Assembly: GCF_001598795.1 (NCBI RefSeq)
Contig: NZ_BCZP01000019.1
Coordinates: forward strand, 1-32,000
Source of the DNA: Delftia acidovorans NBRC 14950
Lineage (GTDB): Bacteria; Pseudomonadota; Gammaproteobacteria; Burkholderiales; Burkholderiaceae_C
DNA: 32,000 bases
Reading direction: 5' to 3'
The translations under genes and the position numbers were made by a program. Positions 1,817 through 26,684 of the stretch are shown here, piece by piece. The notes beneath the pieces were generated by a model, which saw only the letters and a list, made by a program, of their open reading frames with translations, was not told where the DNA came from and searched no databases. The number at the start of each line of letters is the position of its first letter. Within the stretch, counting starts at the first letter, position 1.

Positions 1817-2107
1817 ATGCCCGGCATCATCTTCTGGCTGCTCGTGATCGCAGCCATCCTCTTCTTCAAGCTGACCACGCCCGCCGAGCGCCGCTCGATG
1901 ATCGAGGCCTACTGGCTGATCATCATCGGGCTCGGCGCCGTGGGCTTCATCTGGCAGCTCCGGCGGAAGGTCATCCGTTTCATTACCGTGCCTCTGCAGC
2001 CATCTCCCGCATTTGCTGTCGCAGCGCCTTTGGCGAGTTGTCCGCGATACGGTCGATCCGATCCTTGCCCATCTCGCGCACCTTCTTCCACACGTCGGGC
2101 ATCTTGA
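1817..2107 (+). CDS. Small predicted two-TM membrane protein. Its 3' tail overlaps the end of the giant gene.
   Basis: The sequence MPGIIFWLLVIAAILFFKLTTPAERRSMIEAYWLIIIGLGAVGFIWQLRRKVIRF contains two hydrophobic helices. Third positions are almost all G/C for about 57 codons. Codon bias then collapses where the frame overlaps 1983..2107. Confidence 0.5.
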   Translation: MPGIIFWLLVIAAILFFKLTTPAERRSMIEAYWLIIIGLGAVGFIWQLRRKVIRFITVPLQPSPAFAVAAPLASCPRYGRSDPCPSRAPSSTRRAS

Positions 2108-8100: not shown

Positions 8101-9647
8101 TCCTCAGTGGCCTGGGCCATGGCACTTGCCTGCTGGGCCTGAGCCGCCGCGCCGGAGTCCACGGCAATGGCAGCAGCCGCGGAAAGGGAGCCGGCCGCAG
8201 GGTCCAGGCCCATGGCCTCGGACGGGCGCAGTTCGCCGATGGCAGCGTCTATGCGAGCGGCATCGAGTTGCGGCGCAGGCGTGATGCCCTGCTCGCGCAG
8301 CCGTGCTTCATCGATCACGGGCTCTTGCTGGGCGCTCAACTGGCGCATGAATTCGTCGCGGACCTTGGCCAAGCCGGCGGGCACTTCGCCATCGGCCTGG
8401 TTCTCGCTGACCTGCTGGAACAGATCCGGACTGAAAGCCTGGTGCAGCGAGTCCGCCGCAGCCTTCCGGTCCTCGGGAGGCAGGCTCTCGTCCTGAGCGC
8501 GCGCCAGCGCATCACGGTATTGCTGCTGGCTCTCGGGCCGGACCATCTGGTCGATGGCCGGGCCGTAGGTTGCAACATCGGGCAGGCCCGCAGGCTCTGC
8601 GCCGGCATCCGGGGGCTGGGCGGCAACATCGCCCGGCTGACCAGCAGGCACCCGTGGCTCGCGCATCGCCCGATACCCCGCCGCGCCGCCGCCCATGGTC
8701 GCGCCCGACAGCGTGCCCAGCACCACAGCCGTGTCCACGTCCTGAGACCAGTCCTTCCCCAGGGCCAGGTTCTGGAAGATCTGCTCTGCCACCGACTGGG
8801 GCAGCTCCTCGAGGAAACCTTCGGAGATGGCGCCTTCGATCACCTGGCGCGGAATGCTCTTGACCGCACGATGCTGCAGCAGTGGATTCGACGCAGCTGT
8901 GGCCGCGTCATCGGCGAACTGCTTGGCGATGCCCTTGTTGCCCTGAGCCAGCATCGTCTCGGCATCACCGATGCCCAGACGCTGCGCAACTCTGCCGCCC
9001 CCAAAACTAATGCCGGCCGTAGCCGCGCCCGTGGCTGCCGCTGCGGCAGCCTGCCCAGGCGAGAGCAGTCCATCGGCCGTCTCCTGGCGAATCTGCTCAG
9101 CAGCCGAGCCCGCGCCCACGACACCCTCTCCCAGTGCTCCCGCTGCTACAGCCCCCTTCAGACCCGCCTGACCCAGCCGAGTGGCAGCAGTAAGCCCACG
9201 CGAAACCACGCCAGCAGCACCCATGGCCGGCAGCGATTCAACGACCGCGCCGACGATGTTGGAAGGGTTTTCTACCGCAGCCTTGAACTTGCCGCCCAGT
9301 CCCTCCGCTTCCTGGAATTTCCGCTGGGCTTCCTTGGTGGCGTCAGAGTGCCATTCGTTGATGGCCTCGCGCGCCTGCTTGGGCCGGAAGCCTACTGCAC
9401 CACCCTCGTTCTCCAGAATCTTGCCCGCCCGCCCGCCGGTGACGATATCAGCCAGGCCGACAGCAGCTTCAGGGACGGCCACAGCGCCCTTGGCAACCCA
9501 GGCCGCCGCGTCGCGTGCGTAGTCGGTGACGCTGCGCCCTGGCGGCTCCTTGCCATAGTCAGGATCCGCGAACGGATTCTTGGTCTGAGGCTTGGCGCTC
9601 GGCGCTTCGGCGCCGTAGTCGGGATCGGTGAACGGATTCTGTGCCAT
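1983..9647 (-). CDS. Giant (2554 aa) polyvalent virion / DNA-ejection-type protein with a ParB-like N-terminal-type domain, an HExxH zincin metallopeptidase, a PLxRFG domain and a C-terminal hydrophobic segment
   Basis: A single uninterrupted ORF. The ParB-like motif ...LKPTQAEF...ILVSRDGHVLDGHHQWLAAREAG lies at nt ~6585..6900. HHEVLGHH is at 5841..5864. PLSRFG is at 4008..4025. The hydrophobic AVGWALAMLLLMGGAGGVPF lies at ~2797..2856. Ala/Gly/Pro/Gln-rich linkers join the modules. The gene lies within the virion-gene block, downstream of the head genes. Confidence 0.9.
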   Translation of the reverse strand: MAQNPFTDPDYGAEAPSAKPQTKNPFADPDYGKEPPGRSVTDYARDAAAWVAKGAVAVPEAAVGLADIVTGGRAGKILENEGGAVGFRPKQAREAINEWHSDATKEAQRKFQEAEGLGGKFKAAVENPSNIVGAVVESLPAMGAAGVVSRGLTAATRLGQAGLKGAVAAGALGEGVVGAGSAAEQIRQETADGLLSPGQAAAAAATGAATAGISFGGGRVAQRLGIGDAETMLAQGNKGIAKQFADDAATAASNPLLQHRAVKSIPRQVIEGAISEGFLEELPQSVAEQIFQNLALGKDWSQDVDTAVVLGTLSGATMGGGAAGYRAMREPRVPAGQPGDVAAQPPDAGAEPAGLPDVATYGPAIDQMVRPESQQQYRDALARAQDESLPPEDRKAAADSLHQAFSPDLFQQVSENQADGEVPAGLAKVRDEFMRQLSAQQEPVIDEARLREQGITPAPQLDAARIDAAIGELRPSEAMGLDPAAGSLSAAAAIAVDSGAAAQAQQASAMAQATEEAARAPAKKKASERRVTADPATGEIQGGALATWTDEDLSNAFRSAQAKEVRMPLANELQRRRAEREQQARATAPAPTSTTPKQGSIDGTQADQAQPPRAESSQAAGAQGAPVAGPAAAQGLSNGTTSSQHDGAQAAAAPGSQAQAPVQTPAQRIDAGRAAWASMPTAERKALAKRVGGVNAAIKGSLHGARWENLNAELQLRLADAMQPQGATDDSTAPAVRLADERPAGPAAAAAAGGGQPAGRAADAQPAGPRGGSAGQPAASVQSAVPGRSGASEQAAAVAPAAAPAPTVGQQQAVAIAKEGNDARRAQLLAASERWTSMPAAERQAVAKTAKGLNALARASSHTRAWADLAPKVREKLAAAMPDAAAAPAAPAGRAPVRSVEGRDLGDGWAKFSRDSGSIGVPRAEMPQIRAEHRGAMVNFMNARGIAHQEESVPASSLKPTQAEFSRERVARAKGFEGGNRSILVSRDGHVLDGHHQWLAAREAGEDVKVIRLDAPIRELLGTAREFPSSTTSEGAVQAAAPASAAAAKPKPRGVLAKKAAAEEAARADYFTPGNIVKGYGDSHVRVVSYTPANADGVWSVTVRQVEKQGSGWEDVPGVRERTHATPPSARELKAGPAERTEELPFRRGKADGQGLTDDQMANLLRIMRPEPAAFSDAARAQAVGQVRETVDAIRKGWSNGPEVVVAFDMNDPAVPEAARRADLRQRSGGASGAPEGFYWKGRAYLLASKLNTPTDAARVLHHEVLGHHGLRGMFGPELNKILNQVATMRHAEVAAKIKEYGLRGVTDLSRRHAAEEVLAEMAEKTPQLHFVRRAVAAIRNWLRANVPGFRGLKLSDADIIQGYILPAREFVERGQRAATDRIEPSFSRGVAEMSLVDKARVLQGEPVAVLRGDEAPQGYPLLRAWAAKMFRDAGGQAVNPELGAVVLDERAVRDSMAHGMNPFKAAGFAAVKDVLEKGVVVMQATQSNQDSFFVSAPVRIKGADDILTVLVHRNPETQRMYLHSVITKENLLRARDSGTDAAVAASGHTGKVTSGEVASVLRGLLQINTREAAGRDGGEDLMFSRSRLAEIKDSALDQLQKTMSHPGKVSVWDKTVGTMRHLAERAPAFKPVYETAQRNIDDVSMLANDAADRAPRLLPRVDTISDLVGKNRKTPVSAADNKAVAKPLFEGTLLWGRDVDGKAVLVDELAKKYGNLPADDKAQLLLRAGRLDDRMLRDWRGLPLAQYEALVNSRFESKMLKAGAVWTDAELQTMFGATPNQIALYREARAAIDRSIDMTARADMMRALGDEYAGMRDMVLDAPKLADALELLTTTLQEDAKAKPDMAERLLQLNNMVVDRAATAKDLQDGGYAPLSRFGRYTLDVVDQEGNRQYFGMYETMKDANLAKIQMAQAFPGAVITQGTMSQQSFKLFAGITPETLEIFKDMVVGKEADAATRKVFDEYLKLTKNNHSALKRLIQRKGIEGYSQDVGRVVANFIYSNARQGAAGLNAGTMDRAINDIPKEQGELKDLAMGLRSYIRDPQEEGQAVRGMLFAQYLGGSLASAVVNMTQPFAVTLPWLSQFGGMRAASGQMTRALNDMRRSWMDKSFRYETDLAHALQTAEDDGVVSPQEVHQLMAQARGAGGLRSGDGTRAGDARAAAGNAWERAKVAWGQPFALAEQFNRRSTFIAAFRIAKAQGMDDPGAFARKAVLETQFVYSKANKPQWARGAVGGTLFVFKTYSVSYLELMQRMWKQGGPEGKRAVGWALAMLLLMGGAGGVPFMEDAEDLIDGVGQMMGYNLSSKQWRKEALASIVGKELTEFLEQGVSGLPGAPIDVSGRLGMGNLLPGTGLLLTKQSRERDLLEVVGPAGDLVSRGFAAGRELVGGVMNLDPSAAGRAALEVSPTAVRNAFKGADMAASGMYKDTKGYKVIDTTLAEAVAKAVGFQPKSVAEIQEANSFMQRSKSFYSLTSSEIKAQWADALFRKDEGALARVRARLADWNQNNPEQPIVVKMPDVWKKVREMGKDRIDRIADNSPKALRQQMREMAAEAR

Positions 9648-10824: not shown

Positions 10825-11961
10825 CTACACCTCTCTTTTCCTGTAAAGCTCGGCCACTGCATTCGAAGAAATATTAAGCAACGCGCCAGCATCCCTAAGC
10901 ATCACACGACCAGCAAAAGCCTCGGAAACTAAGGCATTGGTAAGCTTTTTGCTATTTCTTACAAGAACTGTTTTGTAATAATCGCCACCGCCATCGGCAT
11001 TAGCTTTTGCATCGTTTGCTTTCGTTTGGTGCAGCACACTTAGATACGACTCCTTATCCATAAGATCAAGATCCATCGCCCTCTTCGCAATCACCAACCG
11101 ACTCACCTTGAAATAATTTGGAAGTCTGTACAACGCAAGATCTCCCCAAACGTTCCACTGATCCAAAAATTCATTTTCAGGTGTCAGCACCTCAGCTGCA
11201 ACTTGATTGCACTTCTGCTCTAGTCCATCAAACCTACCAAGTACAGAGACAGACACATCAGATACACCGCTTGCACCAAGCCAAATGTGCGCTATTTCAT
11301 GCAGCAGAGTAAAAATCCACGCTGCCGCACTATCTTTCCCATTAATAAAAACGACTGGTGCGAATTTATCCACCAAAGCAAAGCCGCGAAATTCTTCAAC
11401 ATTAAGTGGCTTATGAGCATTGTTTTGCACAACGCCGTTTTTGAACACCAGTATGCCTGCTGCCTCTACACGTTTAACCAACTCCGCGTAATACTGTTCT
11501 TTAGTATCACATTTAACTCTAAGCGCGACATCGCACCCAAGAGTCGCAGAGATGCTCTCGGCAACAGCTTTTGCAGAAGCGGTTTTTTGGTCAAAGCTTC
11601 CAACAAACGGAAGTTGATCAGCTTCACAATCTTTTAAAAATTCCGAATACCATTCCTGTTTCTTTTTTACATCAGCCAACGTGTCAAAAAAAGCTCGCGA
11701 GAGCCGCTTTGCGCCTGGCACTTGCCGCAGGTCGGGTATTTCTGGATCGGGGATGTTAGGCGGCTCGCGTAAGAAAAGGAAGCCGAAAGGCACCTGCGCA
11801 ATGGAGGCAAATTTTTCTGCCTGCTTCGCGGTGAGCTTGCCATCCATAACTTGCTGAGTCTTCGAGGGACCTGCGACACGGGCAGCAAGTTGCTCGACAG
11901 TGGAACCTATGTTCCCTGCCGCCCACTGGAGGACTTCTGGTGCGAGACTGAGCGTTGCCAT
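10825..11961 (-). CDS. HTH (XRE-like) plus ImmA/IrrE family (COG2856, Peptidase_M78-like) zinc metallopeptidase
   Basis: The HExxH motif is LLHEIAHIWLG, with downstream ...CNQVAAEVLTPENEF typical of ImmA/IrrE. The N-terminal ~70 aa are helix-turn-helix-like. The sequence is AT-rich. It forms an operon with 10301..10822. Confidence 0.8.
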   Translation of the reverse strand: MATLSLAPEVLQWAAGNIGSTVEQLAARVAGPSKTQQVMDGKLTAKQAEKFASIAQVPFGFLFLREPPNIPDPEIPDLRQVPGAKRLSRAFFDTLADVKKKQEWYSEFLKDCEADQLPFVGSFDQKTASAKAVAESISATLGCDVALRVKCDTKEQYYAELVKRVEAAGILVFKNGVVQNNAHKPLNVEEFRGFALVDKFAPVVFINGKDSAAAWIFTLLHEIAHIWLGASGVSDVSVSVLGRFDGLEQKCNQVAAEVLTPENEFLDQWNVWGDLALYRLPNYFKVSRLVIAKRAMDLDLMDKESYLSVLHQTKANDAKANADGGGDYYKTVLVRNSKKLTNALVSEAFAGRVMLRDAGALLNISSNAVAELYRKREV

Positions 11962-18793: not shown

Positions 18794-21139
18794 TTACGCG
18801 CCGGCGGGTAAGTTGTCGGCATCGGAGGGCGTCTCGATGCCCTGCATGCCGCGCGACGGTTCCTGCGGGATGGGTGGGAATGTGGGGCTGGTGTTCTCGT
18901 GCACCTGGCCGATGTCGCCGACCGCGCCCGGCCCGCCCGCCTGCGGCACTGGGCCACCAGGCGCCGCGTCCGGTACCGGAAAGTCAGGATCGTCGCCACC
19001 GGGACTGGGCTTTCGATAGCCGGCGCCCTGCATGATGGCGTCGGCAATGGGCGCGATCAGCGGGTTCGCTGCCACCTGGGCCCCGCCCTGCATCGAACTG
19101 AAGGCCGATTGCACGCCCTTGAGCACGGCTGCCGCGACGGTGTCTTGGATCTGGGCATCGGTAAGCCGCTCCTTGATGTCCAGTTCGCGGGCCTTGAGGT
19201 CGTGGCCGGCTTTGGTCAGGGCCGCCTGCACCTCCTGCTGGATCCGCTGCTCGACCTGCTCCGGGCTCTCCTGGGAGCCGGCCGCGCGCAGGGCCTCGAT
19301 GATCTCGCGCTTGTACGGCGTGTCCATGAGCGCAACCATGTAGGGCATGGCGGCCTGCTGGAACTGTGGCGGCATTGTCTTGATGACCTCCTGCATCGCA
19401 TACAGCTGCTGAGAGCGATAGCCGGGCGTGCTGGGCACGTCCTCGAGCTGGACCTTCAGCAGGGTCCGCTGCACGTCGTTGCTCAGGTAGGTGTAGCCGG
19501 CCGGGTCGGTCTCGATCTTGTTGAGCACCACCGACCGATCCTCGGTGACGGCATCGCCCTCGATGATCACCGTCTTTTCCTTGGCGCCCAGGTCCTGGAC
19601 GATCATGGCCAGCAGCATCTCGCCCATGAGGGTGCGCGCGCGCCGGAAGTTGCCCATGATCTCGCCCAGCGCCTGGTTGGCCTGCTCCAGCTGAGTGCGC
19701 TCCTGCAGGCCGCTGGTCGCATTGCCGCGCTGGCCCGTGAAGGCCGCCGGCGCCGCGGACAGCTGCTCGAAGACCGCGCGGCAGTCGTTCATGAGCTGGT
19801 GCTGCTGATCGGTGAGCTGAACATCCCGCTTCACCTCGAAGCGCGCGCCATCCTTTGCCATGTGCTCCTGGTTCAGCACCACATGGGCGTTGCGGCGGCC
19901 GATGGTGCGGCGCAGGACCGCGTCCGGCATATCCGTCGCGCCCTTGGTGTTCTCGACCCGGTAGGCGGACAGCCCCCAGCGCATGAGCGCCGTGCCACTG
20001 TTCAAGCTGTCTTGCTGGTAGATCAGCCCGCGCACGTAGCCATAGGGCACGCGCGTGGAATCCTCGCGGAAGCCCCAGAAGATCACGTAAGGGAAATGGC
20101 TGTGCGGATATGGCGACGGGCTGTCATGCAGCTTGTGCGGCCCGAGCCAGTAGCTGCGGCGCACCTTGGCCACGATGGCCTTGAAGGCCTTGGTCATGCC
20201 CGTGGCTAGGCCGTAGTTGTGGGCCTGGTTACCCGCGTCGTACTCGACCACGCGGCCATCGGGCGACTCGATCAGAACCACCTCGACCCAACGCCGATAC
20301 CAAAGCTCGGTCAGGCACAACTGCTTGTTGGTGCGGTCGTACCAGCGCGCTTCTTCCACCGTCCAGCCGCGCGCATCCTGGCCCGCATTGGTCAGGCCCG
20401 TAGTGCTGCCGCCCTGGTTGGCCAGCCGTCCCGGGTAGCCCTGCTGCCACCAGGTGGCGCCGTTGCGCCCGCAGGACAGTACCAGTTCGCGCGCCTGCGG
20501 AAATGCGCGCGCGATGCGCTCGGGGTGCAGCCATTTGTCCCGCTTGAAATACCGCGCGTCGCTGAGATCCCACTCCTCGGCAGTCCAGTCCCAGCGCACC
20601 TCGCTGCGGCGCACGACCGCGCATTTGTAGCGGTACTGTGTTGGATCACTCACGCGCTGCACGCCCACGCAGCCAAAGCCCACGGCGGCCTGGGGCCGGA
20701 AGGCATCGCTGCAGGCATTGTCTGCATGGGACTCCCGCTCGGCCTCGTTCAGCTCGACGTTGAGTGCGTCGGCCACATCCTTGCTGCCCGTCTGGCCGTT
20801 GGCCGTGACGCGCCAGTCCGTGCGCGTGGTCTGCTCGTAGCCCGTGAGCGCACGCAGCGTGGGCCCGATGCGGTCTTCAATGGCCGGCGGAATGCCCTGC
20901 TCCTTCATGGCGTTCAGCAGCTCGGTGTCCAGCTGCTTGCCGTCGGCATAGTCCATCTCCTTGTCGGCCGCGATGCGCCATGGCGGCTCCTCGTCCATCT
21001 CGCGCAGCCATTCCGTGTATTCGTGGAGCGACACCTCGCCCTCACCCATGCGCAGATCATCATCCCCGGCGTCGAGAGAACCCTCGGATTCGGGCGAGTC
21101 CACGTCCATCGTGCTGGTGTTGATCAATTGAGCCTCCAA
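18794..21139 (-). CDS. Portal protein (781 aa)
   Basis: It lies immediately downstream of terL and overlaps it. The size and acidic N-terminus fit a portal protein. The start is uncertain: TTG 21139, in-frame TTG 21127 (preceded by GGAGG) or ATG 21109. Confidence 0.75.
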   Translation of the reverse strand: MEAQLINTSTMDVDSPESEGSLDAGDDDLRMGEGEVSLHEYTEWLREMDEEPPWRIAADKEMDYADGKQLDTELLNAMKEQGIPPAIEDRIGPTLRALTGYEQTTRTDWRVTANGQTGSKDVADALNVELNEAERESHADNACSDAFRPQAAVGFGCVGVQRVSDPTQYRYKCAVVRRSEVRWDWTAEEWDLSDARYFKRDKWLHPERIARAFPQARELVLSCGRNGATWWQQGYPGRLANQGGSTTGLTNAGQDARGWTVEEARWYDRTNKQLCLTELWYRRWVEVVLIESPDGRVVEYDAGNQAHNYGLATGMTKAFKAIVAKVRRSYWLGPHKLHDSPSPYPHSHFPYVIFWGFREDSTRVPYGYVRGLIYQQDSLNSGTALMRWGLSAYRVENTKGATDMPDAVLRRTIGRRNAHVVLNQEHMAKDGARFEVKRDVQLTDQQHQLMNDCRAVFEQLSAAPAAFTGQRGNATSGLQERTQLEQANQALGEIMGNFRRARTLMGEMLLAMIVQDLGAKEKTVIIEGDAVTEDRSVVLNKIETDPAGYTYLSNDVQRTLLKVQLEDVPSTPGYRSQQLYAMQEVIKTMPPQFQQAAMPYMVALMDTPYKREIIEALRAAGSQESPEQVEQRIQQEVQAALTKAGHDLKARELDIKERLTDAQIQDTVAAAVLKGVQSAFSSMQGGAQVAANPLIAPIADAIMQGAGYRKPSPGGDDPDFPVPDAAPGGPVPQAGGPGAVGDIGQVHENTSPTFPPIPQEPSRGMQGIETPSDADNLPAGA

Positions 21140-22671
21140 TCGGTCTCTTCGGGTTCTTCGTATTCGTGGCGCTTGCTGCCGGGCTCAGGAATGCCCTGGA
21201 CAAAGGTCATTGCCACCGCGTCGCCCTTGTCAGGGGAGCGGCCAAGCGCCTTGCGGATGTCGTCCTTGGAAAGCATCTGGATCGCCGCGACCCGGCCCAG
21301 GGTCACAACCTTGTAGCGAACGGCTGTCAGGTCGGCCAGCAGCTCGGGGTCCGGCGGCAGCGCAATGGGATTGGGGTTGGTTGGGTCCAGGGCCTCACGC
21401 AGCAGCCAGTACATCTCCGCGCGCCGGTTCCGGAATCGCAGATTGCCAGCCATGGTCATGGCGTTGGACGTTTCCGAGCCGTTGACCGCGAGCACCAGCA
21501 GATTCAGTCCCACGATGAAATCCAGGGCGCTGGAGCCGATGCCGATGCTGTCCACGCAGATGCACGCACCGTCGCGCACTAGGGGCGTGACAAAGCCCGC
21601 AGTGGTCGGGCCGTCCTTGGTGACCGCGCCGGGCACGGTGATCAGTTCATCGAACCAGGCGCCGTGGCGCCGCGCCGCCGAGGTCTTGTCGATGCCGCCG
21701 CGCGCCGGGTCCAGGCCCAGGGCCGTCATGCCACCCTTGGCTTCGCGCGGCTTCCACCGGGCCTGCGCCGCCTTCACCCATTCGGTGGGGATCACCTGCC
21801 AGGCCGGGTCCGCGCTGCCGGCATTGAAGTCGCCATTCAGCATCTTGCTGCGTAGCGGCTCAGGCAAGGACTGCAGCGTGGCCTTGTAGCCCGTGGACAG
21901 CAGGAATAGGTTGTCGTTCACGCTGGAAGGGATGAACGTCCGGCTCTTGGGCGTCATCAGGTCCGGGCCGACCATCACGGGCTCAGGGCCAGGCACCTCC
22001 TGGTCCTCGCCCTTCTCATTGGTCACGAACCAGCGCAGTTCGCCCGGCTTTGCCGGGTTCGGGTGCGAAGGCTCCAGCCACGGCGCCCAGAAGCGCTTGA
22101 CCCACTCGCCTTCGGGCTCGGTGGGCGGATTCCCCGCGCACACCACACGCTGCCGGATGGTCGGGTCATCGGTGCGCAGCCAGCCAATCAGGGACCGGAA
22201 TTGCAGTTCGGTGAAGTGGGTGATCTCATCGAAGCCTTTGAAGTCGTGCGCGCGGCCCTGGTACTTGATCCAGTCGCCCGGCTCCTTCACGCTGCCCAGC
22301 TCCAACACCTTGCCCTGCGGCAGCCGCCAGATCCCGTCCTGGCTGTTGTAGCCATCGCGCGTACCCAGGATCGATGTCATGCGCTCTTCGATGCCGGTGA
22401 GCTGCACGGACTGGCGCCGGAAGATGATGCTGTGCTTTTGCTTGGTCAGCGGCAGGCCGAGCAGCAGATCGGTCTTGCCGCCGCCGGCCGCGCCGCCGTA
22501 GAAGACGATATCGGCGTCGGATTCGAAGGCCACGGTCTGGGGGCCAGGCTGCGGGACCCAGATCGGCGCATCGCCAGACAGCAGCAGGGAGTCCAGCTCC
22601 GCGCGCGTGTCCGCGTCCAGGCCCTTGAGCAGATCCAGGATGTCGGCTGTGGTCAGCGCGGGCGTGGTCAT
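21124..22671 (-). CDS. terL: Terminase large subunit
   Basis: Walker A-like FYGGAAGGGKTDLLLG. ATGA overlap with terS. The size and position fit. Confidence 0.9.
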   Translation of the reverse strand: MTTPALTTADILDLLKGLDADTRAELDSLLLSGDAPIWVPQPGPQTVAFESDADIVFYGGAAGGGKTDLLLGLPLTKQKHSIIFRRQSVQLTGIEERMTSILGTRDGYNSQDGIWRLPQGKVLELGSVKEPGDWIKYQGRAHDFKGFDEITHFTELQFRSLIGWLRTDDPTIRQRVVCAGNPPTEPEGEWVKRFWAPWLEPSHPNPAKPGELRWFVTNEKGEDQEVPGPEPVMVGPDLMTPKSRTFIPSSVNDNLFLLSTGYKATLQSLPEPLRSKMLNGDFNAGSADPAWQVIPTEWVKAAQARWKPREAKGGMTALGLDPARGGIDKTSAARRHGAWFDELITVPGAVTKDGPTTAGFVTPLVRDGACICVDSIGIGSSALDFIVGLNLLVLAVNGSETSNAMTMAGNLRFRNRRAEMYWLLREALDPTNPNPIALPPDPELLADLTAVRYKVVTLGRVAAIQMLSKDDIRKALGRSPDKGDAVAMTFVQGIPEPGSKRHEYEEPEETDWRLN

Positions 22672-23582
22672 TTCTCACCCCGCTTCGCCGCGAGCGTGGC
22701 CAGCAGCATGGCCGCGCCTGGCCCGCCGTTGAGCAGTGCCGCCAGCCGCACAGCCCGCTCTGCATCGGTCATCTGCTTGAGCATGAAGGGATCGCTCTTC
22801 TGCTCGTTGTCCTTCTCGTAGAGGCCGGTGTGCTTGAACAGCTTCTCCAGGATGGCCACCTTGTCATGGAACATGACCTCGATGCCGTACTTGCCTTCCT
22901 TGGCGCCGGCATACAGCGCACGCGCGGGCGTGCTGAGCCTGCGAGTGTCCTTCGTCACCACGCGCGAATGGCCATCGCCACCGCACTGCGGGCAGTCTGG
23001 GCTGGGCTCCAGCAGAGGGTTGAAGCCAATGCCGCCCTGCTCATCGAAGTCTGCCGGCGCATTGCCCTTCACGGCCCAGAGCTCACGGTCAGCATTCATC
23101 TCGCCCACCGTGCGCTGGTAACGGTTGCCCTCGCCAAAGCAGTGGCGGCAGCAGCCGGTCTTGACCTCAACCAGCTCACGGGGATCAGCAACCAGGATGT
23201 TCAGGGCCTCGGTGAGCACGCGGTCAGCACTGACCTGGGTGCGCTCCTGCTGCTGCTTCCGTGCCTCTGCGATTGCCGCCTGCAGGTAAGGTTTTGCTAG
23301 GTTTTCAGTAGCAATCTGTTTGGCCGTGTGAACGCTATAGCCGGCGCGGATGGCGGCCTGGGCACCGTTGAGGTCAACGAGGTACTCCTCCACGAAGCGC
23401 TGCTGCTTCGGAGTCAGAGTCTGGGCATCTGCAGCGTTGGCCTGCAATGCCTTGCGTACAGGCTTCTTGGCCGCTGGACGCTTCGCAGGAACGGCAGAGC
23501 CTGCGGCCTTCTTCACGGCTGCAGGCTTCTTGGGGACTGGTTTCTTTTGAGGCTCGGACTTGCCGGCAGGACGTTGGGCCAT
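22668..23582 (-). CDS. terS: Terminase small subunit (Terminase_2-like core) with a Lys/Pro/Ala-rich N-terminal tail and a Cys4 insert
   Basis: LTPKQQRFVEEYLVDLNGAQAAIRAGYS is the classic small-terminase HTH signature. The N-terminus reads AGKSEPQKKPVPKKPAAVKKAAG... The Cys pairs CCRHC (nt ~23139..23155) and CPQC (22971..22994) are present. Confidence 0.88.
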   Translation of the reverse strand: MAQRPAGKSEPQKKPVPKKPAAVKKAAGSAVPAKRPAAKKPVRKALQANAADAQTLTPKQQRFVEEYLVDLNGAQAAIRAGYSVHTAKQIATENLAKPYLQAAIAEARKQQQERTQVSADRVLTEALNILVADPRELVEVKTGCCRHCFGEGNRYQRTVGEMNADRELWAVKGNAPADFDEQGGIGFNPLLEPSPDCPQCGGDGHSRVVTKDTRRLSTPARALYAGAKEGKYGIEVMFHDKVAILEKLFKHTGLYEKDNEQKSDPFMLKQMTDAERAVRLAALLNGGPGAAMLLATLAAKRGEK

Positions 23583-23612
23583 GACTGGGAGTGTTCCCGC
23601 ACGACCTGAGGA

Positions 23613-23632
23613 CGTCGAACCCTAGACGGGTC
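23613..23632 (-). promoter_or_regulatory. Conserved intergenic motif, copy 4 (minus strand GACCCGTCTAGGGTTCGACG)
   Basis: The AACCCTAG core is at 23618..23625, exactly 36 nt from terS ATG 23582. It lies at the head of the late/structural gene block. Confidence 0.55.
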
Positions 23633-23647
23633 CGGACATCATGTCTG

Positions 23648-24214
23648 CTATAGAAACATGCGTGCCTGAGACTTATCGCTTCTTAGTGAGTCGATTCGGT
23701 CAAGAAGACCAATCTTCTCATCAGCCTTCTTCTTAGCATGATCAGACATGAAGGCAACCAGTTCCTCTAGCTCCTCAACGGTGCCCACCTTGTGGAACGT
23801 TTTAGACTTGTTCACAAACACAACGGATTTCTTGTCACGCAGCAATAATTCAATGACATTGCTAAGAGTCCCGGTGCTCTTCGAGTCCCAGATCATTAGC
23901 CCATAGTCGGCAACTTCAGCCATCCTCAAATCTTTAGCTGTAAAAAATGCACGCGATCCCTCGCTGTGAGGTGTGACAACAGCTTCAACGGGCCAATCTC
24001 CAACATTGTTGCGAGGCACAGGGCCACTGCAAAAAATTGTAGCCCTACATCCTCCGTGATTTAACATATGCCACTGCACAGAGGTGTCCACGCCATCCGC
24101 ATCACCGACCAACACTTCGAAGTCTTGGTCTATGATGTTATCGATTCGCTTCTTAACTTCCGGATCGAGATTTTTGATGTTCATTGAACCGGCGATAAAA
24201 ACTTTGGTACTCAT
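23648..24214 (-). CDS. SLOG / DprA-LOG-like Rossmann-fold protein (188 aa from ATG 24214)
   Basis: KVFIAGS...VLVGDADGVDTSVQ resembles the DprA GxARGID-type loop. LMIWDSKSTGTLSNVIELL resembles the LOG/DprA GGxGTxxE loop. A C-terminal charged helix follows. G+C is about 43% on a sampled line. It starts 5 nt after the PRTase stop. Confidence 0.75.
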   Translation of the reverse strand: MSTKVFIAGSMNIKNLDPEVKKRIDNIIDQDFEVLVGDADGVDTSVQWHMLNHGGCRATIFCSGPVPRNNVGDWPVEAVVTPHSEGSRAFFTAKDLRMAEVADYGLMIWDSKSTGTLSNVIELLLRDKKSVVFVNKSKTFHKVGTVEELEELVAFMSDHAKKKADEKIGLLDRIDSLRSDKSQARMFL

Positions 24215-24219
24215 CGATG

Positions 24220-24798
24220 CTATTTCCAAGTTAGGGCAGCAACGTAGATTTTATTGACTTTTTCATACCCTCGGAGCGCTGCGCATGCTGTCTCCATCGA
24301 AGCACCCGAGTCATACAGATCGTCCACCAGCAGCACGTCCCAACGTCCCTCGTTGGTGATGTGATGCACAACAGAAAGGCGCTGCGTCAGCGCATCAAGC
24401 TTCTCCTGTTTCGTCTGCAAATCCTTCAGTGAAGGTCCTCCAGGCGTCTTCGCAAGTGATTCAAATACAGGTTTTTGAACCAACATGCCCAACGCACGTG
24501 CGACCTCCGTAACAGGTTGGCGATCTCGCACTTTCGACGCAGGCATCGGAACAATGAAGCCAACACTGCTGATTTTCGGAAGAATGTTTACTGCCAGCGC
24601 TTGAGCAAGGACTGGCACCTGAGCCCAGTCCGAACGATATTTCAACTGGAAAGATGCTTCCCCTACTTCGGAGCGTTGGGTATCAAACTGAGGGTGGCCC
24701 CATTCGTTATCTCCAACATACGTACTAGAGAGGACATGCTTATCAAGCGCCCAGCCAGCATCCCAGTCGCCGTGGATTTCTTTCAAGTTCACCTGCAT
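24220..24798 (-). CDS. ComF/type I phosphoribosyltransferase-like protein (192 aa)
   Basis: The PRPP-binding loop is WDVLLVDDLYDSGASMETA. ...FIVPMPAS...RQPV... resembles the ComF core. No N-terminal zinc finger is present. AAGGTGG precedes ATG 24798. The sequence is AT-rich. Confidence 0.8.
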   Translation of the reverse strand: MQVNLKEIHGDWDAGWALDKHVLSSTYVGDNEWGHPQFDTQRSEVGEASFQLKYRSDWAQVPVLAQALAVNILPKISSVGFIVPMPASKVRDRQPVTEVARALGMLVQKPVFESLAKTPGGPSLKDLQTKQEKLDALTQRLSVVHHITNEGRWDVLLVDDLYDSGASMETACAALRGYEKVNKIYVAALTWK

Positions 24799-25047
24799 AG
24801 CACCACCTTTTCCAAAGAGTTAAGCGATTACACATCGTAACACCTTCAGCCAAATACTTCCAAGATGAACTTGAACGAAGATTGGGGAATCAGCTTTAAC
24901 TAAATAGATCACCTCAAAACAAATAAAGGCAGCAGTCAATTCGATAAAACCCTATGCACTAAAATTTGACATCAATCAATGAGATTCTGACCAATTCTCT
25001 GCTGATAGCAACTGGCATCAACAACTCCCGATGATCTACGCCAGGTC

Positions 25048-25596
25048 TCAGGAGCCCATCTCAAGAATGAGGTCTGCTTGTCGACTGTCCGCGCGTCTCA
25101 ACGACTTCAGTGCCTTCACTTCTCGCTCCAACTCCCGCCGCTTCGCTAATTCGTCCAGCAGTTGATCCTGAAGTTCCGTAACGCGCGCGAGAGCCGTATG
25201 CTCCAGAGCTACGCCTGCCAGCCCTTGACCGAGGCGAGCGGCTTCAGGGCGGATTAGATGCAACACATGCTCCCCGATCTCCACCATCGTGCGTCCGTCG
25301 TTGAGGTGCACGATGACCACATCCCGCGCCGGCCCGTGCTGGTGCACCGGGCGATAGCACTGCTTCACTGCCGCAATCATCCCCTCGCCGCGCAATACCT
25401 TGATGCGGTCATCTACTGTGGTGAGATTCAGCCCCGTCATCTTGTGGATGCGGTCGCGCGTGGGCTCTTCGCCAGCGTCATGCAACTGGCGGATCGCCTC
25501 GTAGACCTGCGTCAGCGTGGGCACGGCCTCGACCGCGCCCGTGTCCGGATTGCCGCCGGCTGTCTTGTGGATGGTGCTGGTGGTGGCTTGGTTCAT
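25048..25596 (-). CDS. Hypothetical winged-HTH-like protein with a C-terminal coiled coil. It is the last gene before the late block and a candidate late regulator.
   Basis: ...TLTQVYEAIRQLHDAGEEPTRDRIHKMTGLNLTTVDDRIKVLRGEGMI... followed by ...ELQDQLLDELAKRRELEREVKALK. ATGA overlap with the upstream gene. The function is inferred from position. Confidence 0.65.
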   Translation of the reverse strand: MNQATTSTIHKTAGGNPDTGAVEAVPTLTQVYEAIRQLHDAGEEPTRDRIHKMTGLNLTTVDDRIKVLRGEGMIAAVKQCYRPVHQHGPARDVVIVHLNDGRTMVEIGEHVLHLIRPEAARLGQGLAGVALEHTALARVTELQDQLLDELAKRRELEREVKALKSLRRADSRQADLILEMGS

Positions 25597-26117: not shown

Positions 26118-26371
26118 CGGATGTCACCCTCCAGCCCCACATCCACCAGGAAGCCGTGGTCGCCCATCACGCACACACGCGTGGGGCCGTACTGCTCCAG
26201 GCGGCAGCAACGGTTTTCCGACCAGACGGAGAAGCGGTAGCGGCCCAGGGCATCGGGGCCGTCGATGCGCTCGCGCATTGCGGCGCCGCGCCACAGGGGC
26301 GGGTGTTGGGGCATGGCGCGCACGGTGCCGCGCTGGCCACGGCGCGGAAGGTCTGGGCGGAAATCAAGCAT
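26114..26371 (-). CDS. Hypothetical protein (85 aa from ATG 26371)
   Basis: MLDFRPDLPRRGQRG... It overlaps the upstream stop by 8 nt. The longer track version (to 26494) lies out of frame over the DUF4406 gene. Confidence 0.5.
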   Translation of the reverse strand: MLDFRPDLPRRGQRGTVRAMPQHPPLWRGAAMRERIDGPDALGRYRFSVWSENRCCRLEQYGPTRVCVMGDHGFLVDVGLEGDIR

Positions 26372-26684
26372 GGGCACCGCCCTCCCCTGCGCTGGCATCG
26401 AAGTCCTGCACCTCCAGGCCCAGCACGCGCGCCACAAAGCTCTCCAACCGGGCACCGCGCGACTGCTTCCAGCCCGGCAGCCGGTGCACGGCATCGCAGG
26501 TGCACAGCTGCGGCAGCGCCAAACGCATGTAGCCGGCCCAGCTGCCGCACGCTGGCGCGGGGTTCTCGGCCGGGTTCTCGACGTGGTGGCCCTGGGCGCG
26601 CAGCGTGGCGGCGGCTCGGTTGAAGGCCGGGTAGTTGAAGTCGGGCAGGCCTGTCATCGGACCGGCGATGTAGATGCGCTTCAT
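26364..26684 (-). CDS. DUF4406 (nucleoside 2-deoxyribosyltransferase-like fold) protein
   Basis: MKRIYIAGPMTGLPDFNYPAFNRAAATLRAQGHHVENPAE... is the characteristic DUF4406 N-terminus. ATGA overlap with the resolvase gene. Confidence 0.75.
   Translation of the reverse strand: MKRIYIAGPMTGLPDFNYPAFNRAAATLRAQGHHVENPAENPAPACGSWAGYMRLALPQLCTCDAVHRLPGWKQSRGARLESFVARVLGLEVQDFDASAGEGGAHA

What the first reader, a model, noticed from the sequence alone, without database searches (positions are those of the whole stretch)
23640..25047. AT-rich two-gene cassette (ComF-like PRTase plus SLOG/DprA-like protein) wedged directly upstream of terS: candidate nucleotide-centred anti-phage or conflict system
What the sequence shows:
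- A ~1.4-kb block has visibly lower G+C (about 43% on a sampled line, against 62-70% in the flanks). It interrupts the junction between the last early gene (25048..25596) and the late block.
- It has a 250-bp AT-rich upstream region of its own and a good RBS (AAGGTGG).
- It holds two genes 5 nt apart.
- Gene 1 (24220..24798) carries a textbook PRPP-binding loop, VLLVDDLYDSGASMETA, and a ComF-like core, but lacks the ComF zinc finger.
- Gene 2 (23648..24214) carries GDADGVD and SKSTGTLSNVIE loops. These resemble the two nucleotide-binding loops of the DprA/LOG (SLOG) Rossmann superfamily.

Established knowledge, from memory:
- SLOG-PRTase gene neighbourhoods were predicted to be nucleotide-based conflict systems (Burroughs et al. 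2015).
- A DprA-like plus PRTase pair was listed among P2/P4 hotspot antiviral systems (Rousset et al. 2022).
- As far as I know the biochemistry is unresolved, including the substrate, product and trigger.

Inference: this is prophage cargo at a classic moron hotspot and protects the lysogen. It could act by cleaving, depleting or modifying nucleotides, or by making a phosphoribosyl-linked signal.
Basis: partly seen in the sequence, partly recalled or inferred. Interest (0 to 1): 0.85.

Follow-up and report, generated by a model that had tools for sequence, protein, structure and literature searches.

The report
Compact ShosTA-like PRTase/DprA-like prophage defence cassette
A Delftia prophage carries, in a slot where its sibling prophages carry known anti-phage systems, a two-gene cassette that is a stripped-down, distant relative of the ShosTA/PsyrTA toxin-antitoxin defence systems: a phosphoribosyltransferase that is probably the toxin, and a DprA-like protein that probably keeps it in check.

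Summary
Two tightly spaced minus-strand genes (24220..24798, 192 aa; 23648..24214, 188 aa) and a 249-bp AT-rich leader form a ~1.4-kb low-G+C block (49% and 40%, against 65% in the rest of the window). It lies between the last early gene and terS of a P22-like Delftia acidovorans prophage.

Gene 1 is a ComF-like PRTase. It matches the PADLOC PsyrT and ShosT toxin models, and its closest folds are H. pylori ComF and ShosT. Gene 2 is a SLOG protein whose closest folds are DprA and ShosA.

- The pair is strictly co-conserved: 80 of 80 loci fetched through gene 1.
- Decay is one-sided. Gene 1 is truncated or missing beside an intact gene 2 in 16 of 67 loci, and never the reverse. This is the pattern expected of a toxin and its antitoxin.
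- In sibling prophages the same slot is empty or holds PD-T4-10, a TIR protein or a Drt1b-like protein. Elsewhere the pair sits beside Kiwa, Lamassu, R-M or SIR2 genes.

It is not a canonical ShosTA or PsyrTA. It lacks ShosT's pyrophosphatase domain, PsyrT's helicase and ShosA's SAM domain, and gene 2 escapes the ShosA model.

Verdict: a new compact variant of a known kind. Function is inferred, not tested.

The parts
24799..25047 (-). AT-rich leader of the cassette (40% G+C). It contains the RBS AAGGTGG at 24803..24809 and a stretch, GTGTTACGATGTGTAAT, shared with the leader of the other pair-bearing sibling prophage.
   Evidence: Sequence and G+C. The leader is partly conserved with L105, which carries a 77-86% identical pair. 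No consensus promoter was found, and no ORF of 50 aa or more lies on the coding strand.
24220..24798 (-). Gene 1: a 192-aa stand-alone ComF-like type I phosphoribosyltransferase, the probable toxin or effector. The PRPP loop VLLVDDLYDSGASMETA is encoded at 24286..24336, with D159 and D160 matching ShosT D331 and D332.
   Evidence: PADLOC PsyrT 2.3e-9 and ShosT 2.1e-6, and 35 of 35 relatives hit both. Pfam Pribosyltran matches only at 0.0022, below its cutoff. AF2 pLDDT is 93.0. Foldseek top hit is H. pylori ComF 7p0h (E 1.2e-5, TMq 0.62), with ShosT 8zvd at TMq 0.57. Decay is one-sided.
23648..24214 (-). Gene 2: a 188-aa SLOG-superfamily protein closest to DprA and ShosA, the probable antitoxin or sensor. 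It has a Rossmann domain (residues ~1-145) and a helical C-terminal extension ending in a conserved hydrophobic tail. The GDADGVD motif is at 24086..24106 and SKSTGTLSNVIE at 23849..23884.
   Evidence: AF2 pLDDT is 93.7. Foldseek hits: HpDprA 4ljl (9e-5), ShosA 8zva (2.8e-4, TMq 0.54), SpDprA, YpsA, LOG and ThsA SLOG. Viral SLOG/YAcAr/DprA-like folds also match. There is no Pfam or PADLOC hit for this protein itself, but 13 of 39 relatives weakly hit Pfam DNA_processg_A and 6 of 39 hit PADLOC ShosA. The C-terminal tripeptide is MFA in 68 of 116 homologues.
23613..23630 (-). Downstream edge of the cargo slot: the conserved backbone motif CCCGTCTAGGGTTCGACG, which precedes terS in all sibling prophages whatever their cargo.
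   Evidence: Alignment of the window with L105 (pair), L127 (empty slot) and L106 (PD-T4-10).
25048..25596 (-). Upstream flank, prophage backbone rather than cargo: the last early gene (182 aa, phrog_8117, weak KfrA_N-like N-terminus). It is conserved at 78-93% in sibling prophages.
22668..23582 (-). Downstream flank, prophage backbone: the small terminase subunit, followed by the large terminase (21124..22671) and the P22-type portal (18794..21139).
   Evidence: Pfam Terminase_2 3e-35, phrog_51, P22_portal.

Best explanation
The block is a horizontally acquired two-gene conflict module carried as cargo in the defence hotspot of a P22-like Delftia prophage. It is a compact, distant relative of the ShosTA and PsyrTA (RqlHI) toxin-antitoxin anti-phage systems.

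- Gene 1 is a stand-alone ComF-like phosphoribosyltransferase and is the toxic effector. By analogy with ShosT, it binds PRPP through its intact DD loop and transfers, or wastes, phosphoribose on a still unknown acceptor. This would disturb nucleotide metabolism and DNA replication and stop growth of the infected cell.
- Gene 2 is translationally coupled to gene 1. It is a single-domain DprA-like SLOG protein that keeps the PRTase harmless in the lysogen and is the infection-sensitive component. It could lose its hold because it is labile (a conserved hydrophobic C-terminal tail), or because phage ssDNA or nucleotides occupy its conserved DprA-type pocket.

Shown here: the folds, the remote homology to the toxin models, strict pairing, one-sided decay of gene 1, the hotspot and the defence-island contexts.

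Inferred: toxicity, neutralisation, the trigger, the chemistry and protection of the lysogen.
For: - Gene 1 homology: it matches PADLOC PsyrT (2.3e-9) and ShosT (2.1e-6), and 35 of 35 relatives match both, with best E-values of 5.7e-13 and 5.7e-11.
- Folds: confident AF2 models match ComF, PurF and ShosT for gene 1 and DprA, ShosA and other SLOG proteins for gene 2.
- Pairing: gene 2 follows gene 1 within 6-21 nt in 79 of 80 genome loci and within 102 nt in the other.
- One-sided decay: among 67 metagenomic loci fetched through an intact gene 2, 16 have gene 1 truncated, frameshifted, internally deleted or absent, in nine distinct kinds of lesion. By contrast, 0 of 80 loci fetched through gene 1 have a damaged gene 2 (Fisher p = 1.2e-6).
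- Hotspot: sibling prophages with 93-95% identical terS hold other cargo in the same slot. These are PD-T4-10 A+B (8e-45, 2e-125), a DUF1883-TIR protein (PDC-S66 3e-68, ThsB-like) and a Drt1b-like protein (2e-27). In L127 the slot is empty.
- Contexts elsewhere: a P4-like island with Kiwa and Lamassu in Bordetella, next to an Mrr nuclease, next to R-M on an E. coli IncFII plasmid, and next to SIR2, HNH and a nucleotidyltransferase on a Sinorhizobium plasmid, where the SLOG protein carries an HTH as many antitoxins do.
- Horizontal transfer: the pair's G+C is below its flanks by more than 5 points in 66 of 97 loci.
- Published biology of the relatives: ShosT toxicity needs the DD of the PRPP loop, ShosA is a DprA-like antitoxin, and the system aborts T7 infection (PMC11961720, PMC12961424). 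A DprA plus PRTase pair protects against T7 and lambda (PMC9122126).
Against: - No phenotype was or could be tested.
- Homology to ShosT and PsyrT is remote: 11-13% identity in the fold alignments, Pfam Pribosyltran below its cutoff, and profile matches to solved PRTases only around the PRPP loop.
- Gene 2 itself hits no ShosA, PsyrA or DprA model.
- The ShosT pyrophosphatase domain, the PsyrT helicase and the ShosA SAM domain are all absent, so the published ShosTA mechanism may not transfer.
- This particular gene 2 product is mildly acidic (pI 5.96), although the family median is 8.9. That does not favour strong ssDNA binding.
- No promoter was detected for expression in the lysogen.
- The decay asymmetry comes from two searches with different sampling (species genomes against metagenomes), and each kept only the best 80 matches.
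Confidence: 0.6

Rival explanations
1. Sensor-effector module rather than toxin-antidote. The SLOG protein would be a ligand sensor for phage ssDNA or a nucleotide-derived molecule. It would bind and switch the PRTase directly, as SLOG domains do in Thoeris ThsA, and the same sensor domain would be reused with other effectors.
For: - Relatives of the gene 2 domain (E about 1e-33 to 1e-69 to the family profile) are fused to Abi_alpha (2e-14), HEPN_AbiU2 (4e-5) and other long C-terminal regions.
- The conserved polar residues lie in the DprA/SLOG ligand-pocket motifs.
- The short intergenic gap fits a stoichiometric complex.
- Rousset et al. proposed that DprA senses phage DNA and activates the PRTase (PMC9122126).
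Against: - If the SLOG protein were only an activator, loss of gene 1 beside a retained gene 2, and never the reverse, would not be expected.
- ShosA neutralises ShosT, and no strong ShosT-ShosA interaction was detected (PMC11961720).
Confidence: 0.17
2. Write-and-erase enzyme pair, in the manner of DarT-DarG. The PRTase would attach ribose-5-phosphate to a base in DNA, RNA or a nucleotide. The SLOG protein would act as a LOG-like phosphoribohydrolase and remove it, until infection tips the balance.
For: - LOG enzymes of the same superfamily hydrolyse exactly the bond that PRTases make (established knowledge), and LOG structures are among the fold hits.
- Relatives of the gene 2 domain are fused to NADAR (1.8e-23) and DUF4326 (5e-5), domains linked to ADP-ribose processing (PMC7824862).
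- The ShosT acceptor substrate is still unknown (PMC11961720).
Against: - The position of the LOG catalytic Glu in PGGxGTxxE (motif recalled from memory) is Asn119 here, nearly invariant in the family.
- The closest folds are the non-enzymatic DNA binders DprA and ShosA, not LOG.
- ShosA acts through ssDNA and RecA binding (PMC12961424).
Confidence: 0.08
3. A plain addiction (stabilisation) module of mobile elements with no role against phages. It would persist because its loss kills the cell.
For: - 101 plasmid records carry a relative of gene 2, 55 of them conjugative.
- It is also found in integrative islands and prophages.
- The decay pattern is TA-like.
Against: - It repeatedly sits beside dedicated defence systems and in a slot that otherwise holds defence systems.
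- Its closest characterised relatives do defend against phages (PMC11961720, PMC9122126).
- The two roles are not mutually exclusive.
Confidence: 0.1
4. A function that benefits the phage. One option is an ssDNA-handling pair analogous to the competence proteins ComFC and DprA, serving recombination or superinfection. The others are nucleotide salvage or a counter-defence sponge.
For: - The best fold match of gene 1 is ComFC and the best match of gene 2 is DprA. Those two proteins work together in natural transformation (established knowledge).
- Many phages encode DprA-like or YAcAr SLOG proteins.
Against: - No match in 50,697 sequenced phage genomes.
- Most occurrences are in bacterial chromosomes and plasmids.
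- Sibling prophages manage without it or carry defence genes in its place.
- The ComF zinc finger and the extra DprA domains are absent, and TIGR00201 scores 17 against a cutoff of 233.
- Gene 1 decays frequently.
Confidence: 0.05

Closest known systems
ShosTA (E. coli APEC O1; the 'DprA + PRTase' system of P2-like phage hotspots)
   Same: - Two adjacent genes: a PRTase with an intact DD PRPP loop and a DprA-like Rossmann protein.
- Gene 1 hits the PADLOC ShosT model, and both folds match the ShosT and ShosA crystal structures.
- Carried in a prophage cargo hotspot next to the packaging region, as ShosTA is next to cos in P2-like phages (PMC9122126).
   Different: - Gene 1 is 192 aa against 424 aa and lacks the N-terminal pyrophosphatase-like domain.
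- Gene 2 is 188 aa against more than 313 aa, lacks the SAM domain and is not recognised by the ShosA model.
- Identity in the fold alignments is only 11-18%.
- PADLOC models would therefore not call this pair as a system. That is inferred from the missing gene 2 hit; the PADLOC system caller was not run.
PsyrTA / RqlHI
   Same: The PADLOC PsyrT model is the best defence-model hit (2.3e-9). It aligns residues 43-189 of gene 1 to the C-terminal PRTase part of the model, positions 538-681 of 689. Its antitoxins are described as DprA homologues (PMC9122126).
   Different: There is no RecQ-like helicase part, which makes up about 540 of the 689 model positions. Gene 2 hits no PsyrA model at E < 1.
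ComFC and DprA of natural transformation
   Same: These are the best structural matches of the two proteins: 7p0h for gene 1, and 4ljl and 3uqz for gene 2. Public annotation also calls gene 1 a 'ComF family protein'.
   Different: - No zinc finger: a single Cys, with none in the N-terminal region.
- TIGR00201 scores 17.3 bits against a cutoff of 233.55.
- No Pfam DprA hit for gene 2 itself, and no SAM or C-terminal DprA domains.
- The pair is mobile, low in G+C and located in defence islands rather than in competence operons.
SLOG sensor domains of conflict systems (Thoeris ThsA; YAcAr/DUF2493; Burroughs et al. 2015 class, cited from memory)
   Same: Same superfamily fold. ThsA SLOG, YpsA, LOG and TRPM SLOG-type domains are among the fold hits. 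Relatives are fused to effector-like domains.
   Different: The sequence motifs are of the DprA type (GxAxG[IV]D, RN, SxGT; DprA consensus recalled from memory). There is no TIR or SIR2 partner here. The ligand is unknown.
PRTase effectors of retrons
   Same: A PRTase used as a probable abortive-infection effector (PMC12961424, PMC9122126).
   Different: No reverse transcriptase or non-coding RNA lies nearby, and gene 1 hit no PADLOC model other than PsyrT, ShosT and DpdF, the last only weakly.

Membership tests
ShosTA | Toxin with a PRTase domain and an intact PRPP-binding DD loop | tested here: met
   VLLVDDLYDSGAS, with D159 invariant and D160 at 90% or more. PADLOC ShosT 2.1e-6, and 35 of 35 relatives hit it. 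Foldseek to 8zvd, 8zvb and 8zvc at E 2.5e-4 to 5.7e-4.
ShosTA | Toxin N-terminal pyrophosphatase-like Rossmann domain (ShosT residues 1-164) | tested here: not met
   Gene 1 is 192 aa. Its model is a small N-terminal three-stranded sheet followed by the PRTase core. The ShosT model match covers only residues 64-189.
ShosTA | Antitoxin with a DprA-like Rossmann domain | tested here: met
   Foldseek to ShosA 8zva at E 2.8e-4 (TMq 0.54), with DprA 4ljl and 3uqz as top hits. At sequence level there are only weak family-level hits: ShosA in 6 of 39 relatives and Pfam DprA in 13 of 39.
ShosTA | Antitoxin recognised by the ShosA sequence model, with an N-terminal SAM domain | tested here: not met
   Gene 2 gives no ShosA hit at E < 1. 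Its Rossmann strand starts at residue 4, leaving no room for a SAM domain.
ShosTA | Toxin is lethal, antitoxin neutralises it, and the system protects against phage by abortive infection | not testable with these tools
   There is only indirect support: one-sided decay of gene 1 and the defence contexts.
ShosTA | Antitoxin instability through its C-terminus, ssDNA binding and RecA binding | tested here: inconclusive
   The last ~8 residues have low confidence (pLDDT 58). The C-terminal tripeptide is conserved, MFA in 68 of 116 homologues. Family median pI is 8.9, but this member is 5.96.
PsyrTA / RqlHI | Toxin = RecQ-like helicase fused to a C-terminal PRTase | tested here: not met
   Only the PRTase part matches: model positions 538-681 of 689, E 2.3e-9. 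Gene 1 has no helicase region.
PsyrTA / RqlHI | Antitoxin recognised by the PsyrA model | tested here: not met
   No PsyrA hit for gene 2 or for any of its 39 diverse relatives at E <= 1.
ComF (ComFC) family | N-terminal four-cysteine zinc finger and a score above the TIGR00201 cutoff | tested here: not met
   One Cys in the protein, and none in the N-terminal 60 residues in 93 of 105 relatives. TIGR00201 scores 17.3 bits against a cutoff of 233.55. The fold is nevertheless closest to ComF 7p0h.
DprA (Pfam DNA_processg_A) | Score above the Pfam gathering threshold; SAM plus Rossmann (plus C-terminal) architecture | tested here: not met
   No Pfam hit for gene 2. Relatives reach 0.0011 at best. 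The protein has a single Rossmann domain plus a helical tail.
SLOG superfamily | Rossmannoid fold shared with LOG, DprA, YpsA, the Moco carrier protein and ThsA SLOG, with glycine-rich and SxGT-type loops | tested here: met
   All of these appear among the Foldseek hits at probability 0.95-1.00. The viral hits are YAcAr and DprA-like SLOG proteins. G37, G41, D43, S113 and G115 are invariant.
Type I phosphoribosyltransferases (Pfam Pribosyltran) | PRPP-binding motif and PRTase core fold | tested here: met
   The motif is present. Fold hits include PurF, OPRT, APRT, HGPRT and PurR. The Pfam score is below its cutoff (17.8 against 26.3 bits), and the profile matches solved PRTases only at the PRPP loop (E 0.026-0.98).

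The most novel reading that the evidence does not exclude
The gene 2 type of DprA-like SLOG domain may be a portable infection sensor or regulator, not a ShosA-style repair factor. It would be shared by several effectors: a separate PRTase here, and fused Abi_alpha, HEPN, NADAR/DUF4326 and HTH modules elsewhere. In this minimal pair it would bind and gate the PRTase directly, or enzymatically reverse a phosphoribosyl mark that the PRTase places on nucleic-acid bases or nucleotides. That would make this a new, DarTG-like 'phosphoribosylation' conflict chemistry. It would also provide the simplest system in which to identify the acceptor substrate that is still missing for ShosT.
Probability: 0.15. 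Interest if true: 0.8.

Novelty: new variant of a known kind. Interest (0 to 1): 0.42.

Why it matters
PRTase plus DprA-like systems (ShosTA, PsyrTA/RqlHI) are validated anti-phage toxin-antitoxin systems, but their chemistry is only half understood. The acceptor of the PRTase is unknown, and it is unclear how a DprA-like protein neutralises it.

This cassette reduces the system to two single-domain proteins of about 190 aa. It is widespread:
- 227 matches among species-representative genomes (GTDB set).
- 365 metagenomic loci.
- 101 plasmid records, including conjugative plasmids of Klebsiella, Enterobacter and E. coli.
- About 1,900 clusters (50% identity) of relatives of the SLOG protein.

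Gene 2 hits no PADLOC ShosA or PsyrA model, so model-based detection probably misses the pair. It is therefore likely to be under-counted in defence censuses, and it is a convenient minimal model for the open biochemical questions.

The analysis also identifies the junction between the last early gene and terS of this Delftia prophage lineage as a defence hotspot with sharply defined edges.

Tried and rejected
- Sequence searches against PDB. Single sequences gave nothing meaningful. Profiles matched solved PRTases only at the PRPP loop for gene 1 and gave nothing for gene 2.
- A conserved third gene. Neighbour clustering across 89 loci found shared neighbours only among syntenic Pseudomonas genomes, so the system has two genes.
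- Promoter and terminator scan of 23400..25300. Nothing turned up in the leader or after gene 2. A weak TTGGAA-N18-TACGAT candidate, read by eye, is below the scan threshold and I do not rely on it.
- Small ORFs in the leader. None is convincing.
- Metagenome scan with the diverse alignment A3. It failed for lack of a conserved stretch, so the partners of the more distant stand-alone SLOG relatives remain unknown.
- Net charge as a proxy for ssDNA binding. Inconclusive.
- Search of sequenced phage genomes for gene 2. No match.
- terS adjacency as a general rule. Rejected: it holds only in this Delftia prophage lineage.
- A LOG-like catalytic Glu. Not present; the position is Asn119.
Full report
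**1. The observation**

The window is part of a P22-like prophage in the Delftia acidovorans chromosome CP066006.1. The locus carries an S24 repressor, Cro, Rha/ANT, terS, terL, a P22-type portal and a capsid gene.

On the minus strand, gene 1 (24220..24798, 192 aa) and gene 2 (23648..24214, 188 aa) are separated by 5 nt. Gene 1 is preceded by AAGGTGG, 4 nt before its ATG.

G+C is 49% over the two genes and 40% over the 249-bp leader (24799..25047). The rest of the window is 65%. No consensus promoter or terminator was found around the cassette, so autonomous expression is not shown.

**2. What the two proteins are**

*Gene 1.*
- Its Pfam Pribosyltran match is below the cutoff, and its match to the comF model is far below the cutoff.
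- It does match the toxin models of two known defence systems in PADLOC: PsyrT (2.3e-9, C-terminal PRTase part of the model) and ShosT (2.1e-6). All 35 aligned relatives do the same.
- A confident AlphaFold model (pLDDT 93.0) is closest to H. pylori ComF (7p0h, TMq 0.62). The PRTase domains of PurF, PurR and OPRT follow, and then ShosT (8zvd, TMq 0.57).
- It has one cysteine and no zinc finger.

*Gene 2.*
- It has no Pfam, NCBIfam or PADLOC family and no sequence match in PDB, even as a profile.
- Its model (pLDDT 93.7) is a SLOG Rossmannoid. The best matches are DprA (4ljl, 3uqz) and ShosA (8zva, rank 3, TMq 0.54). YpsA, the Moco carrier protein, LOG, ThsA SLOG and TRPM SLOG-type domains follow.
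- In the viral structure library, the matches that carry a name are mostly YAcAr/DUF2493 and DprA-like proteins.
- A full-database profile search found about 1,900 cluster representatives. Among 39 diverse relatives (29-54% identity), 13 weakly hit Pfam DprA, 7 hit YAcAr and 6 hit PADLOC ShosA.
- The invariant residues (G37, G41, D43, Q47, R68, W74, D95, W109, S113, G115) include positions in the motifs that correspond to the DprA signature motifs. The DprA consensus is recalled from memory.

**3. Co-conservation and asymmetry**

- In 80 of 80 genome loci fetched through gene 1, gene 2 follows. The gap is 6-21 nt in 79 of them and 102 nt in one. In 8 of 9 viral contigs fetched through gene 2, gene 1 precedes it; the ninth is cut by the contig end.
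- There is no conserved third gene.
- Among metagenomic loci fetched through an intact gene 2, 67 have enough upstream sequence to judge. Of these, 51 have an intact gene 1. The other 16 have remnants of 36-86 aa, frameshifts, an internal deletion or nothing, in nine distinct kinds of lesion.
- The contrast with 0 of 80 in the other direction gives Fisher p = 1.2e-6.
- The component that can be lost while its partner stays, and that is never found alone, behaves like a toxin. This is the strongest new evidence for assigning the roles. Its caveat is that the two samples come from different collections and each keeps only the best 80 matches.

**4. Context**

- Prophages with 93-95% identical terS and 78-93% identical upstream early gene differ only in what lies between those two genes.
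- The edges of this slot are the stop codon of the early gene and the motif CCCGTCTAGGGTTCGACG (window 23613..23630).
- The slot is empty in L127 (125 bp). It holds a 77-86% identical copy of the pair in L105.
- In other siblings it holds different low-G+C cargo:
  - PD-T4-10 A and B (8e-45, 2e-125).
  - A DUF1883-TIR protein (PDC-S66 3e-68, ThsB-like).
  - A Drt1b-like membrane protein (2e-27).
  - A C92 peptidase.
- This terS-adjacent position is peculiar to this prophage lineage. Elsewhere the pair is found in:
  - A P4-like island with Kiwa and Lamassu in Bordetella.
  - A region with zeta-toxin, kinase and integrase genes in Piscinibacter.
  - A position next to an Mrr-type nuclease.
  - A position next to type II R-M genes on an E. 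coli IncFII plasmid.
  - A position next to SIR2, HNH and nucleotidyltransferase genes on a Sinorhizobium plasmid, where the SLOG protein has a C-terminal HTH.
- It is absent from 50,697 sequenced phage genomes and present on 101 plasmids.
- Its G+C is usually below that of its surroundings: median 50% against 59.5%, and lower by more than 5 points in 66 of 97 loci.

**5. Mechanism**

Published work on ShosTA:
- ShosT binds PRPP.
- Its toxicity needs D331 and D332 of the PRPP loop.
- It perturbs purine metabolism and causes filamentation and DNA duplications.
- Its acceptor substrate is unknown.
- ShosA is a dimeric DprA-like ssDNA and RecA binder that neutralises ShosT, and no strong ShosT-ShosA interaction was detected.
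- ShosA is unstable through its C-terminus, so shut-off of host protein synthesis by T7 Gp0.7 releases the toxin (PMC11961720, PMC12961424).

By analogy, I propose that gene 1 is a PRPP-dependent toxic PRTase and gene 2 its neutralising, infection-sensitive partner. Only the anatomy, the homology, the decay asymmetry and the context are shown here. Everything else is inference.

Two features suggest the ShosTA mechanism may not transfer unchanged:
- Both proteins are single-domain. There is no pyrophosphatase domain, no helicase and no SAM domain.
- The gene 2 type of SLOG domain is modular. Relatives are fused to Abi_alpha, HEPN_AbiU2, NADAR, DUF4326 and HTH domains.

This keeps two rivals alive: a direct sensor-effector model and, less likely, a write-and-erase model. 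In the latter, the LOG catalytic Glu position is Asn119 here, which counts against it. A conserved hydrophobic C-terminal tripeptide (MFA in 68 of 116 homologues), lying in a low-confidence tail, is a candidate degron. That is speculation.

**6. Comparison and membership**

It works like ShosTA or PsyrTA, but it is not a member of either as currently defined. The PRTase and DprA-like cores are met. The ShosT N-terminal domain, the PsyrT helicase, the ShosA SAM domain and recognition by the ShosA and PsyrA models were tested and are not met. It is not a ComFC/DprA competence pair either: there is no zinc finger, and both proteins score far below the family cutoffs. I file it as a new compact variant of the PRTase plus DprA-like toxin-antitoxin defence class.

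**7. Verdict**

The statement that the biochemistry is unresolved needs updating.

Interest is moderate. The class is known and a prophage-borne variant is not surprising. However, this form is minimal, widespread (including on conjugative plasmids of Klebsiella, Enterobacter and E. coli) and probably missed by model-based detection. It is a practical system for finding the missing PRTase substrate.

Noticed in passing
window 1983..9647 (-): A 2554-aa ORF with a Pfam LPD3 'large polyvalent protein-associated domain 3' match (4e-6). A giant polyvalent protein in a P22-like prophage could be an injected counter-defence protein.
   Followed up: no
window 26364..26684 (-): A small DUF4406 protein (1.3e-27). 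I recall this family as nucleoside 2-deoxyribosyltransferase-like. It lies in the early region about 1.5 kb from the cassette. It would be a second nucleotide-type Rossmannoid protein in the same prophage, with no known role here.
   Followed up: partly
window 23613..23630 (-), and the matching positions in L105, L106 and L127: The motif CCCGTCTAGGGTTCGACG, directly upstream of terS, is conserved in sibling prophages whatever cargo they carry. It marks the edge of the slot and could be a recombination or regulatory site.
   Followed up: partly
L106:3206-4704, L102:2106-2879, L116:4398-4922, L114:4243-4881: The same slot in sibling prophages carries PD-T4-10 (both genes), a DUF1883-TIR protein (PDC-S66, ThsB-like), a lone Drt1b-like membrane protein with no reverse transcriptase in the slot, and a C92 permuted-papain peptidase.
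   Followed up: yes
proteins P0343, P0384, P0272, P0274, P0351; L261:3998-4837: The gene 2 type of SLOG domain occurs fused to Abi_alpha, HEPN_AbiU2, NADAR, DUF4326 and HI1420/XRE-type HTH domains. Three further long fusions (P0245, P0319, P0353) contain Rx4-6H motifs in their C-terminal regions. These could be HEPN-like, but no model confirms it.
   Followed up: partly
L098:11174-11458 and L099:6039-6323: In Acidobacteria, a dnstrm_HI1420 'addiction module antidote' gene follows the pair by 28 nt, and one relative (P0351) fuses the SLOG domain to that same domain. This may be a three-part or autoregulated variant.
   Followed up: no
window 10825..11961 (-): A 378-aa protein with a Peptidase_M78 (IrrE-like) domain (1e-12) lies inside the structural or late part of the prophage. 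M78 proteins usually pair with repressors, so its position here is unexplained.
   Followed up: no
L222, L223, L230, L252 (about 40-260 nt upstream of the decayed gene 1): Several metagenomic loci with a decayed PRTase gene share an upstream 230-245-aa ORF. By eye its N-terminus looks KfrA_N-like. The window's upstream early gene (25048..25596) also has a weak KfrA_N match (0.0034). No homology between the two was detected by tblastn.
   Followed up: partly
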